A DNA stretch of 64,000 bases from Candidatus Kaiserbacteria bacterium (GTDB lineage Bacteria; Patescibacteriota; Minisyncoccia; Phycocordibacterales; UBA2100), in contig CP070993.1 of NCBI GenBank assembly GCA_017134395.1, positions 608,945 to 672,944 on the forward strand, read 5' to 3'. Position 1 is the stretch's first letter, and the number at the start of each line of letters is the position of its first letter. Positions 36,461 through 36,787 of this stretch are shown piece after piece. Made by a program: the position numbers and the translations under genes. The notes below the pieces were generated by a model. It did not search any database. It was given only the letters and a program-made list of their open reading frames with translations, and was not told the origin of the DNA.

Positions 36461-36534
36461 GTCGGGGTAGCTCAGTTGGTTAGAGCGTAGGACTCATAAA
36501 CCTAAGGTCGGCAGTTCAAATCTGCCTCCCGACA
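36461..36534 (+). tRNA. tRNA-Met (anticodon CAU; elongator type)
   Basis: GUCGGGG-UA-GCUC-AGUUGGUUA-GAGC-G-UAGGA-CUCAUAA-ACCUA-AGGUC-GGCAG-UUCAAAU-CUGCC-UCCCGAC-A; could alternatively be the lysidine-modified Ile2 type. Confidence 0.8.
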
Positions 36535-36787
36535 CTAGATGTAGTAAAAACCGATACGAAAGTGTCGGTTTTTTTACTACTCTTGTCGAGGGCAGAATTG
36601 AAAGACGGAGCTGGTATACAAGACGACTGAAAGGAGTGCTTGTCACCACAAGAGTACTTCAATTTTTATATTCGCTAGCACTCTTTAAAAATTTGGTCGC
36701 GGCGAGTCCGGGCAGGAGCCACTTAACGATCCGCCGGCTGGCGGAGAGCTTAGTGAGCTGACGCCAAATCTGCCTCCCGACACTAGA
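36517..36787. repeat. tRNA-Met-associated mini-element: 23-bp perfect direct repeat caaatctgcctcccgacactaga (36517-36539 in tRNA 3' end; 36765-36787) flanking about 225 bp
   Basis: exact repeat; body has terminator 36541-36580, conserved motif gaattgaaagacggagctggtatacaagacgactgaaaggagtgcttgtc, and palindrome ccgccggctggcgg. Confidence 0.5.
36541..36580. terminator. tRNA-Met terminator hairpin gtagtaaaaaccga...tcggtttttttactac
   Basis: long stem plus T7 run. Confidence 0.65.

What the first reader, a model, noticed from the sequence alone, without database searches (positions are those of the whole stretch)
36517..36787. tRNA-Met is followed by a 225-bp mini-element flanked by a 23-bp perfect direct repeat of its own 3' end
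The 23-mer caaatctgcctcccgacactaga (T-loop to discriminator of tRNA-Met, extended by 5 nt) recurs exactly at 36765-36787. Between the copies lie a strong terminator hairpin (36541-36580), the motif gaattgaaagacggagctggtatacaagacgactgaaaggagtgcttgtc, and a GC palindrome ccgccggctggcgg, with no ORF. A duplicated tRNA 3' end at 23 bp is the classic footprint of site-specific integration, yet the 225 bp between the copies holds no recombinase gene. It is either a decayed relic or a non-autonomous mini-element.
Basis: seen in the sequence. Interest (0 to 1): 0.7.

Follow-up and report, generated by a model that had tools for sequence, protein, structure and literature searches.

The report
tRNA-linked structured mini-element family
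The 23-base repeat is real and marks one copy of a small, protein-less DNA module with the shape of a folded RNA; such modules sit behind many different tRNA genes in these tiny-genome bacteria, each tailored to its own tRNA, and I found no catalogued equivalent.

Summary
The repeat is confirmed: it is exact, 23 nt, at 36517-36539 and 36765-36787, with none expected by chance. It is not an isolated scar.

The 248-bp unit is a hairpin plus a roughly 200-nt module. It belongs to a large family, with four copies in this window, behind tRNA-Met, tRNA-Ser, tmRNA and (diverged) tRNA-Gln. More than 120 metagenome loci also hold it, behind tRNAs of at least 18 isotypes.

Every unit is built the same way:
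- the tRNA, ending in T1 (nucleotides 56-73);
- a terminator-like hairpin;
- T', an inverted copy of T;
- a conserved core starting GAAAGACGGAG;
- T3, a direct copy of T that starts exactly at C56.

The core and the T':T3 stem form a four-helix fold. 89% of cells are paired, against 34-41% in slid controls, and 26 of 39 pairs show compensatory changes. G.U pairs far outnumber A.C pairs, which places the fold on the tRNA-sense strand.

Five relatives have the empty tRNA-Met site, and occupancy is patchy among relatives. No recombinase or other protein is consistently linked. Rfam 15 and the literature search gave nothing.

Best reading (about 0.45): a non-autonomous, tRNA-gene-targeting element that integrated as a small circle and whose conserved RNA-like core serves its own propagation. 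The main rival is a host ncRNA family. The mechanism is inferred, not shown.

The parts
36461..36535 (+). tRNA-Met (CAT), elongator type; its nucleotides 56-73 are T1
   Evidence: ARAGORN; Rfam tRNA at 67.4 bits
36517..36539 (+). Repeat copy 1: T1, which is C56 to the discriminator (18 nt), plus 5 nt of trailer (CTAGA)
   Evidence: Exact 23-mer with none expected by chance; the start at C56 is shared by 43 of 85 units
36541..36580 (+). Hairpin P0: terminator-like, with an A-rich 5' arm and a U-rich 3' arm. It is part of the inserted unit. With T1 and T' it can form one hairpin of about 40 bp.
   Evidence: Folds (-42.4 kcal/mol, z -9.5); absent from the empty site in L009
36584..36600 (+). T' (anti segment): TGTCGAGGGCAGAATTG, an imperfect inverted copy of T1/T3 and the 5' strand of closing helix P1
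   Evidence: covariation of P1 across the family
36600..36764 (+). Conserved core: GAAAGACGGAG, helices P2/P2a/P3 and helix P4 with the GC-palindrome tip at 36731-36744. Includes a 56-nt insertion specific to this copy at 36648-36703.
   Evidence: CM R1 match at 36583-36783, 84.8 bits, E 9e-23; alignment A2
36765..36787 (+). Repeat copy 2: T3 plus 5 nt, the 3' strand of P1. The native tRNA-Met trailer follows it.
36789..36829 (.). Native bidirectional terminator shared by tRNA-Met and the convergent HTH gene; homologous to the L009 tRNA-Met trailer
   Evidence: Inverted repeat I3, 20+20 nt at 100%; alignment
18548..18698 (-). Second family copy, behind tRNA-Ser(GCT) at 18749-18836(-). It ends with CGAATCCCTCTCTC, a copy of tRNA-Ser from C56 on.
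   Evidence: CM at 128.7 bits; sequence
966..1110 (-). Third family copy, behind tmRNA at 1157-1548(-). It ends with (T)CGATTCCCGCC, a copy of the tmRNA T-loop and stem.
   Evidence: CM at 54.0 bits; sequence
55920..56059 (+). Fourth, diverged copy. It ends with a 19/19 copy of the tRNA-Gln (47238-47309) 3' end and is preceded by a hairpin at about 55875-55919. An island of about 8.6 kb now separates it from its tRNA.
   Evidence: CM at 29.9 bits, E about 9e-7; sequences
38156..38172 (-). Remnant of a module 5' end (AGTGAACCAAAACTTGA) behind tRNA-Asp at 38223-38297(-). The intact orthologue is in L009.
   Evidence: Compare

Best explanation
The 248-bp unit is one integrated copy of a tiny, protein-less mobile element family that targets the 3' part of tRNA and tmRNA genes.

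The free form is inferred to be a small circle, T - hairpin - T' - core. A single crossover between its T segment and nucleotides 56-73 of the matching tRNA gene gives exactly the observed order: tRNA..T1 - hairpin - T' - core - T3 - native trailer. The tRNA stays intact and receives the element's own terminator.

The core plus the T':T3 stem is a conserved structured RNA (or tRNA-sense single strand). I infer that it serves the element's own propagation. Target choice would be read by base pairing through the target-matched T and T' arms, and the recombination enzyme would be supplied in trans.

Shown here:
- the repeat and its fixed start at C56;
- insertion polymorphism among relatives;
- the family and its linkage to tRNA genes;
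- the fold, its covariation and its strand;
- the absence of any linked protein.

Inferred, not shown: the circular intermediate, the mobility mechanism, transcription, and the role of the RNA.
For: 1. Empty sites. L009 tRNA-Met continues directly into the sequence after copy 2. L011, L013, L017 and L018 also lack the insert.
2. Patchy occupancy in syntenic relatives. The window has Met present, iMet absent and an Asp remnant. L009 has iMet present, Met absent and Asp present. L017 has Thr present. L018 has Asp present. L013 has none.
3. Family size. GAAAGACGGAG occurs 3 times exactly in the window, against 0.84 expected even allowing one mismatch. At least 120 metagenome loci hold the extended motif.
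4. Linkage to tRNA genes. The motif lies 59-70 nt behind a same-strand tRNA of many isotypes, or behind tmRNA. Of 83 CM hits, 60 directly follow a tRNA and 8 follow another copy. 60 of 149 tRNAs in those loci carry one.
5. Fixed repeat start. The direct repeat starts 18-20 nt from the tRNA end in 52 of 85 units, and exactly at C56 in 43. Its right end varies. This fits homology between a circle and its target.
6. The T' arm is complementary to its own tRNA, perfectly over 16-17 nt in six units.
7. Fold. 89.4% of cells are paired against 34-41% in slid controls. 26 of 39 pairs have compensatory changes. 0 of 500 shuffles reach the observed values. In the internal helices G.U outnumbers A.C by 27 to 3.
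8. Signs of turnover typical of selfish elements: tandem arrays, remnants and diverged copies.
9. The same core subtypes occur behind different tRNAs.
10. No protein family is consistently adjacent.
Against: - No circular or excised form, transcript or trans-acting enzyme was observed.
- Precise deletion between the repeats would also leave clean 'empty sites', so gain is supported only by parsimony.
- How a new tRNA specificity arises is unexplained, because both T' and T3 must change together.
- T3 stays 82-100% identical to T1 at all 18 positions, while T' complementarity decays outward to 35-55%. This asymmetry fits selection or gene conversion on T3 better than a neutral scar.
- Such strong purifying selection on a fold is unusual for a passive non-autonomous element.
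- Motif scans of viral contigs found no copy.
- Three islands found through homologues of the window's serine recombinase showed no module within 10 kb.
Confidence: 0.45

Rival explanations
1. A host non-coding RNA gene family. Each module would be a functional RNA whose closing helix reuses the acceptor and T-stem sequence of the neighbouring tRNA (a 'minihelix' with a conserved domain of about 110-150 nt in place of the T-loop). It would arise by local duplication of the tRNA 3' end and terminator and act in tRNA metabolism, processing or decoying. Presence/absence would reflect repeat-mediated deletion.
For: - Strong structural conservation with covariation and strand-specific G.U pairs.
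- T3 is kept identical to the tRNA (82-100% per position).
- T3 stays identical even where an island has separated it from the tRNA and the tRNA-like segment at the island's right end differs strongly from the tRNA 3' end.
- About 40% of units are followed by their own terminator-like hairpin, and in L074 and L133 that hairpin is a diverged duplicate of P0.
- 40% of tRNAs in the sampled loci carry one.
Against: - Occupancy differs between close relatives and between tRNAs, with remnants and decayed copies. This is unlike an essential partner gene.
- The outer, acceptor-mimic half of P1 is poorly paired (35-63%), so a true minihelix is often absent.
- There is no room for an obvious promoter between the hairpin's U-run and the module.
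- In a read-through transcript the tRNA would be trapped in the hairpin of about 40 bp.
Confidence: 0.25
2. A retro-element, SINE-like or retron-like. The module RNA would be copied by a reverse transcriptase supplied in trans and inserted by target-primed synthesis. One nick would be fixed in the T-loop at 55/56 and the second nick would be variable, so the repeat would be a target-site duplication.
For: - The left repeat boundary is fixed and the right one varies, with repeat lengths of about 9-31 nt, as in target-primed insertions.
- The terminal inverted arms with an invariant G directly after the 5' arm resemble retron a1/a2 geometry.
- The structure lies on the sense strand.
Against: - No reverse transcriptase was found in the window ORFs scanned or among recurrent neighbours.
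- PMC13011429 reports no group II introns in Patescibacteria.
- There is no encoded CCA or poly(A) trace at the repeats.
- The inserted unit carries T' already matched to its target, which a plain target-site duplication does not explain.
Confidence: 0.1
3. The modules are cis sites (attP arms) of the tRNA-integrating islands that carry large serine recombinases. The short units would be deletion derivatives mobilised by those recombinases.
For: - In the window (tRNA-Gln), L089/L026 (tRNA-Tyr) and L033 (tRNA-Glu), a large serine recombinase gene abuts the tRNA, and a hairpin-module-T3 unit lies at the far end of a 5-10 kb island. T1 and T3 are identical over 19-21 nt where checked, in the window and L089.
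- The window and L089 recombinases are homologous.
Against: - Each island checked (window, L089) also has its own diverged tRNA-like segment just before the hairpin. L137, an insertion without a recombinase, has one too. This fits islands that inserted between a tRNA and a module already present.
- Three islands found through recombinase homologues (L269-L271, all at tRNA-Gln) show no module and no tRNA-Gln repeat of 11 nt or more beyond the recombinase gene, within 10 kb.
- The recombinase family is also common in Bacteroidota.
- A double-stranded recombination site would not show G.U-tolerant covariation.
Confidence: 0.1
4. A decayed relic of a once larger integrated element, or a chance repeat.
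For: The unit has a short length, no ORF, and a 56-nt insertion specific to this copy.
Against: - No chance matches are expected.
- The same module of about 150 nt, with compensatory changes, recurs in more than 100 loci.
- The unit length is tightly distributed, at about 160-250 nt.
Confidence: 0.03

Closest known systems
tRNA-gene-integrating islands and prophages with T-loop crossover (P4-type integrases; own knowledge)
   Same: Both have a direct repeat of the tRNA 3' part that starts in the T-loop and runs to or past the tRNA end. In both the tRNA is restored by the element's copy, and insertion is polymorphic.
   Different: The module has no integrase and is only about 160-250 bp long. 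It carries an additional inverted copy of the target and a conserved core with a covarying fold on one strand.
CIMEs (att-flanked, recombinase-less cis-mobilisable elements of streptococcal ICEs) and MITEs/REPINs (own knowledge)
   Same: All are non-autonomous, short and multi-copy, can form tandem arrays, and presumably depend on an enzyme supplied in trans.
   Different: In MITEs and REPINs the terminal repeats are constant and belong to the element. Here the arms change with the target tRNA. No parent autonomous element was identified. The conserved multi-helix core is not a feature of those elements.
Guide-bearing RNAs of mobile elements: IS110 bridge RNA, IS605 TnpB and IscB omega RNA (own knowledge)
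   Same: All combine a conserved scaffold with short segments that match the insertion target, and the target specificity differs between copies.
   Different: No transposase or nuclease gene is adjacent to the module. The target-matching segments pair with each other as a terminal helix instead of sitting in internal loops or a free tail. No Rfam match was found.
Retron msr-msd ncRNA (own knowledge)
   Same: In both, the ends form an a1/a2-like inverted repeat and a conserved G follows the 5' arm. A conserved 5' hairpin region is followed by a variable long hairpin.
   Different: There is no adjacent reverse transcriptase. The arms are copies of a tRNA 3' end. The modules are multi-copy and linked to tRNA genes.
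tmRNA and viral tRNA-like structures (own knowledge)
   Same: In all of them the 5' and 3' ends reconstitute acceptor/T-type helices around a large inserted domain.
   Different: The module has no T-loop or D-loop mimic. The acceptor part of its helix is often mismatched. It matched no Rfam tRNA-clan model. One exists for each tRNA species rather than one per genome.
Group IIC introns (own knowledge)
   Same: Both insert immediately downstream of terminator hairpins, and ORF-less copies of the introns exist.
   Different: The module has no group II domains and gave no Rfam hit. Here the hairpin belongs to the inserted unit. PMC13011429 reports that Patescibacteria lack group II introns.

Membership tests
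tRNA-integrating integrative element (island or prophage) | Direct repeat made of the tRNA 3' part, flanking the element | tested here: met
   The 23-nt exact repeat. The same pattern occurs in 52 of 85 units.
tRNA-integrating integrative element (island or prophage) | Integrase or recombinase gene inside the element | tested here: not met
   225 nt lie between the repeats, with no real ORF. No linked protein family across loci.
tRNA-integrating integrative element (island or prophage) | Empty target sites in related genomes | tested here: met
   L009, L011, L013, L017 and L018 lack the insert.
CIME or other non-autonomous att-flanked element | A related autonomous element with the same att site and arm sequences | tested here: inconclusive
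   Serine-recombinase islands end in a module in 3 loci. Islands found through the recombinase show none within 10 kb.
MITE / REPIN | Constant terminal inverted repeats and a short target-site duplication of fixed length | tested here: not met
   The arms covary with the target tRNA. Repeat lengths range from about 9 to 31 nt.
Any Rfam 15 RNA family | Score at or near a family's gathering threshold | tested here: not met
   Only tRNA was found in 35700-37000 at E up to 10, and in 8 other module-bearing loci at E up to 1.
Conserved structured RNA (generic) | Compensatory base changes that support helices, above controls | tested here: met
   89.4% of cells paired against 34-41% in slid controls; 26 of 39 pairs compensatory; 0 of 500 shuffles.
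Conserved structured RNA (generic) | The element is transcribed | not testable with these tools
   No expression data were available. The promoter scan was uninformative.
Retron | Reverse transcriptase gene adjacent to the ncRNA | tested here: not met
   The Pfam scans run on window neighbours and recurrent locus neighbours found no reverse transcriptase.
IS110 bridge RNA / IS605 omega RNA | Encoded within or next to the cognate transposase or nuclease gene | tested here: not met
   No such gene is adjacent in the window or recurrent in about 115 loci.
tmRNA / tRNA-like structure | T-arm hairpin with a T-loop, plus a paired acceptor stem | tested here: not met
   The T-loop is opened and paired with T'. 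Pairing in the acceptor part is only 35-63%.

The most novel reading that the evidence does not exclude
The modules are natural programmable guides. The conserved core would be the scaffold for an unidentified trans-acting recombinase or nuclease. The T' and T3 arms would read both strands of the tRNA gene's 56-73 segment by base pairing. Each copy would then be a guide for one tRNA gene, making this a nucleic-acid-guided site-specific integration system carried by a roughly 200-nt element in Patescibacteria.
Probability: 0.15. Interest if true: 0.9.

Novelty: categorically new. Interest (0 to 1): 0.8.

Why it matters
If this holds, a sizeable share of tRNA genes in a major, poorly understood bacterial radiation carry an undescribed RNA-shaped module. 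In the sampled loci the share was 40%, although those loci were chosen for holding a module. Each module is custom-matched to its tRNA in both orientations.

Two readings are open, and both matter. It may be a new class of minimal mobile element whose target is read by base pairing, which would be of interest for programmable integration. Or it may be a new family of tRNA-coupled RNAs in organisms with extremely reduced genomes.

The finding also matters for annotation. These units imitate attL/attR scars and terminators, and they will confuse island prediction at tRNA genes.

Tried and rejected
- **Rfam.** Gathering and permissive scans of the window region and of 8 other loci found only tRNAs and chance hairpin matches.
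- **Genome-contig scan.** The 18-mer of the repeat gave 6 unrelated hits. The source genome and its close kin are not among the species representatives.
- **Exact-protein look-up.** The 212-aa neighbour is not on record. This was solved through homologues.
- **Viral contigs.** The extended 5' motif gave 0 hits. Two looser patterns gave 130 loci, all rejected by the CM, with 0 hits in 1.17 Mb. This also serves as a specificity control.
- **Own promoter.** TANNNT is enriched at -28 to -25 from GAAAG. This is explained by the palindrome with the A-rich tRNA trailer, so it is not evidence for a promoter.
- **Linked protein.** Clustering ORFs within 5 kb of the module in about 115 loci gave no dominant family. 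The top cluster (11 loci) is an HTH plus LAGLIDADG-like ORF lying upstream of tRNA genes, and it is absent from the window.
- **Link to the tRNA-Gln island recombinase.** Three homologous islands showed no module and no tRNA-Gln repeat within 10 kb. The test is inconclusive because the islands may be longer.
- **Known ribozymes and RNAs.** Comparison by eye with hammerhead, HDV, group I and II introns, RNase P and SRP gave only short coincidental similarities and no model support.
- **Literature.** Searches by motif, by Patescibacteria/tRNA/ncRNA terms and by minihelix/mobile terms found nothing relevant.

Full report
**Observation.** The window holds tRNA-Met(CAT) at 36461-36535. The 23-mer CAAATCTGCCTCCCGACACTAGA is present exactly twice, at 36517-36539 and 36765-36787. 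No match occurred in 100 dinucleotide-preserving shuffles, even with three mismatches allowed. It covers tRNA nucleotides C56 to the discriminator plus five trailer bases. A hairpin with a U-run at 36541-36580 follows copy 1, and a perfect 20+20-nt bidirectional terminator at 36789-36829 follows copy 2.

When 36581-36788 is folded, its 5' end (TGTCGAGGGCAGAATTG, 36584-36600) pairs with repeat copy 2. The segment therefore carries an inverted as well as a direct copy of the tRNA 3' end.

**Origin and relatives.** The neighbouring 212-aa protein is 100% identical to a protein of a Candidatus Kaiserbacteria MAG on a 687,746-bp contig. Contigs with its 57-78% identical homologues keep the gene order LigA-GatC-GatA-212aa-tRNA-iMet-tRNA-Met-HTH.
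- In L009 (75% identical neighbour) the tRNA-Met 3' end runs directly into CTAAA plus a terminator and the HTH gene. These are homologous to what follows copy 2 in the window.
- L011, L013, L017 and L018 also have nothing inserted there.
- The window therefore carries a clean 248-bp insertion bounded by the repeat, and the first hairpin belongs to the insertion.

**It is a family.**
- L009 carries a homologue of the inserted sequence behind a different gene, tRNA-iMet.
- A local BLAST and a motif search found further copies in the window behind tRNA-Ser(GCT) and behind tmRNA, and in L009 behind tRNA-Asp.
- In those loci GAAAGACGGAG typically lies 59-70 nt downstream of a same-strand tRNA gene. 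The isotypes seen are Asp, Pro, Gly, Asn, Tyr, Ser, Ala, Glu, Val, Arg, Leu, Gln, Lys, Trp, His, Phe and Met, plus tmRNA. Thr was added by L017.

**Common anatomy.** I analysed 85 distinct tRNA+motif units.
- Each unit has the order: tRNA ending in T1 (56-73), an A-rich/U-rich hairpin (P0), T' (reverse complement of T), GAAAGACGGAG and the core, then T3 (direct copy of T).
- The direct copy starts 18-20 nt before the tRNA end in 52 units, and exactly at C56 in 43. It runs 9-31 nt.
- The repeat spacing is about 160-250 nt.
- T' is perfectly complementary over 16-17 nt in six units.
- T1, P0 and T' together fold into one hairpin of about 40 bp (-38 to -58 kcal/mol, z -7.7 to -12).

**A conserved fold.** An alignment of 45 units (A2) gives an RNAalifold structure in which 16 of 24 pairs have compensatory changes. 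I then scored a fuller model with helices P1 (T':T3), P2, P2a, P3 and P4.
- 89.4% of cells form standard pairs, against 34-41% when the 3' partners are slid by 1-3 columns.
- 26 of 39 pairs show changes on both sides.
- The covariation score is 0.449 against 0.171 in shuffles, and 0 of 500 shuffles reach the observed values.
- In the internal helices G.U pairs outnumber A.C pairs by 27 to 3. The fold therefore belongs to the tRNA-sense strand, either RNA or that single DNA strand. It is not a property of a double-stranded site.
- Unpaired stretches (GAAAGAC, GGA, GUAU, GAGUC) are nearly invariant.
- Rfam 15 has no matching family, and the literature searches found nothing.

**Covariance model.** CM R1 gave these results:

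| Source | Match | Score |
|---|---|---|
| Window, tRNA-Ser copy | 18548-18698(-) | 128.7 bits |
| Window, tRNA-Met copy | 36583-36783(+) | 84.8 bits |
| Window, tmRNA copy | 966-1110(-) | 54.0 bits |
| Window, new diverged copy | 55920-56059(+) | 29.9 bits |
| 56 other loci | 83 hits | E up to 0.001 |
| 130 viral loci (1.17 Mb) | 0 hits | E up to 0.01 |

- The tRNA-Met copy has a private 56-nt insertion at 36648-36703.
- Of the 83 hits in other loci, 60 directly follow a tRNA and 8 follow another copy (tandem arrays). 60 of 149 tRNA genes in those loci carry one, although the loci were selected for holding a module.
- The viral loci were picked by loose patterns, so the zero result is also a specificity control.

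**Turnover.** Occupancy differs among syntenic relatives:

| Genome | Occupied | Empty or remnant |
|---|---|---|
| Window | tRNA-Met | tRNA-iMet empty; remnant of a module 5' end behind tRNA-Asp |
| L009 | tRNA-iMet (3' copy decayed), tRNA-Asp | tRNA-Met empty |
| L017 | tRNA-Thr(GGT) | tRNA-iMet, tRNA-Met and tRNA-Asp empty |
| L018 | tRNA-Asp | tRNA-iMet and tRNA-Met empty |
| L013 | none | all |

The same P4 subtypes occur behind different tRNAs.

**The tRNA-Gln island.**
- The fourth window copy ends with a 19/19 copy of the tRNA-Gln (47238-47309) 3' end but lies 8.6 kb away.
- Between them are a large serine recombinase whose ORF overlaps the tRNA end, cargo genes and a LOOT RNA. A diverged tRNA-like segment then precedes the hairpin.
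- The same arrangement occurs at tRNA-Tyr in L089/L026 and at tRNA-Glu in L033. Their recombinases are of the same type, and L089's is 29% identical to the window's.
- L137 has a 3.4-kb insertion without a recombinase at tRNA-Ser.
- I read these as islands that integrated between a tRNA and a module already present.
- Islands fetched through the recombinase's closest homologues (L269-L271, all at tRNA-Gln) show no module and no tRNA-Gln repeat within 10 kb. The recombinase family also occurs in Bacteroidota.
It is not excluded either, because the islands may be longer than 10 kb.

**Interpretation.** The order T1 - hairpin - T' - core - T3 is what a single crossover between a tRNA gene and a small circle (T - hairpin - T' - core) produces. 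This model explains five things:
- the fixed left repeat boundary and the variable right one;
- the element-borne terminator;
- the native terminator after T3 in many units;
- the tandem arrays;
- the clean empty sites.

Together with the patchy distribution, the remnants and the lack of any coding capacity, I favour a non-autonomous tRNA-targeting element. Its conserved RNA-like core would serve its own propagation, and its target would be specified by the matched T and T' arms (confidence 0.45).

Three observations do not fit comfortably:
- T3 stays 82-100% identical to the tRNA at every position, whereas T' complementarity falls from about 95% (inner 7 nt) to 35-55% (outer).
- No mechanism is evident for acquiring a new tRNA specificity.
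- No promoter is evident.

These keep the host-RNA reading alive (0.25). Retro-transposition (0.1) and mobilisation by the island recombinases (0.1) are weaker. A relic or a chance repeat is excluded.

**Verdict.** What is there is more interesting than a scar. It is one member of a widespread, apparently undescribed family of tRNA-coupled, structure-conserved mini-modules. Its function and mobility mechanism remain inferred. The decisive tests are circle-junction and empty-site reads, transcript mapping, and a genome-wide census with phylogenetic profiling.

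Noticed in passing
window 47238-55919: An island of about 8.6 kb sits at tRNA-Gln. A large serine recombinase ORF (47297-48985, minus strand) overlaps the last 13 nt of the tRNA. The cargo ORFs mostly have no Pfam hit. A diverged tRNA-Gln-like 3' segment (GGTTCGAACCTTTCTAAGTTCTGCCAGC, about 55846-55873) lies at the right end. Homologous recombinases abut tRNA-Gln in L269-L271.
   Followed up: partly
window 50968-51090 (+): LOOT RNA (Rfam RF03000) matches at 82.7 bits, inside the tRNA-Gln island and upstream of ORF 51141-51578.
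   Followed up: no
window 35945-36283 (+): A small GIY-YIG nuclease-family ORF is inserted between the tRNA-iMet terminator and the tRNA-Met promoter. It is absent from this position in L009, L011, L013, L017 and L018. A second, weak GIY-YIG-like ORF (56086-56937) directly follows the tRNA-Gln module copy.
   Followed up: partly
window 36334-36460; L009 6056-6146: The transcribed leader of tRNA-Met looks like a degenerate upstream tRNA-Met pseudo-copy. L009 keeps the first 24 nt of the tRNA exactly, and the window keeps only TAGCTCAGTT plus a shared block, GCATGCAATAGTCTCTTGGTAAGGTCG. The promoter TTGAAAGAA..AATAAATTGCTATTCTT is conserved in the closer relatives (window, L009, L011, L013) and recognisable in diverged form in L017 and L018.
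   Followed up: no
window 37099-37152 and 37260-37494: A perfect 27+27-nt palindrome lies between the divergent ArsR-type HTH gene (36829-37104, minus strand) and a Lys/Ala-rich histone-H1-like gene built of 33-nt repeats. It is probably an operator.
   Followed up: no
L019-L124 (11 loci, e.g. L021 2740-3405, L055 1006-1665): In most of these loci an ORF of about 220 aa ends within a few bases of the start of a tRNA gene (Gly or Trp); in L038 and L053 it lies divergently next to tRNA-Val, and in L019 just downstream of a module behind tRNA-Asp. It has an N-terminal HTH and a LAGLIDADG-like GLxLYWGEG motif and gives no Pfam hit. It may be a homing-endonuclease-like gene associated with tRNA loci.
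   Followed up: partly
L137 10300-14184 (-): This relative has the same tmRNA / tRNA-Ile(TAT) / tRNA-Ser order as the window. tRNA-Ser is separated from two tandem module copies by 3.4 kb that encode an 819-aa SMC/AAA ATPase. The second module's 3' copy carries a 13-nt insertion.
   Followed up: partly
window 5161-5235 (+): tRNA-Ile with a TAT anticodon, which is uncommon in bacteria. It is also present in the relative L137.
   Followed up: no
L009 10481-10639: A tyrosine integrase gene (Phage_integrase) starts about 30 nt after tRNA-Thr(GGT) in this relative. This is another tRNA-linked island, and it is cut by the end of the locus.
   Followed up: no
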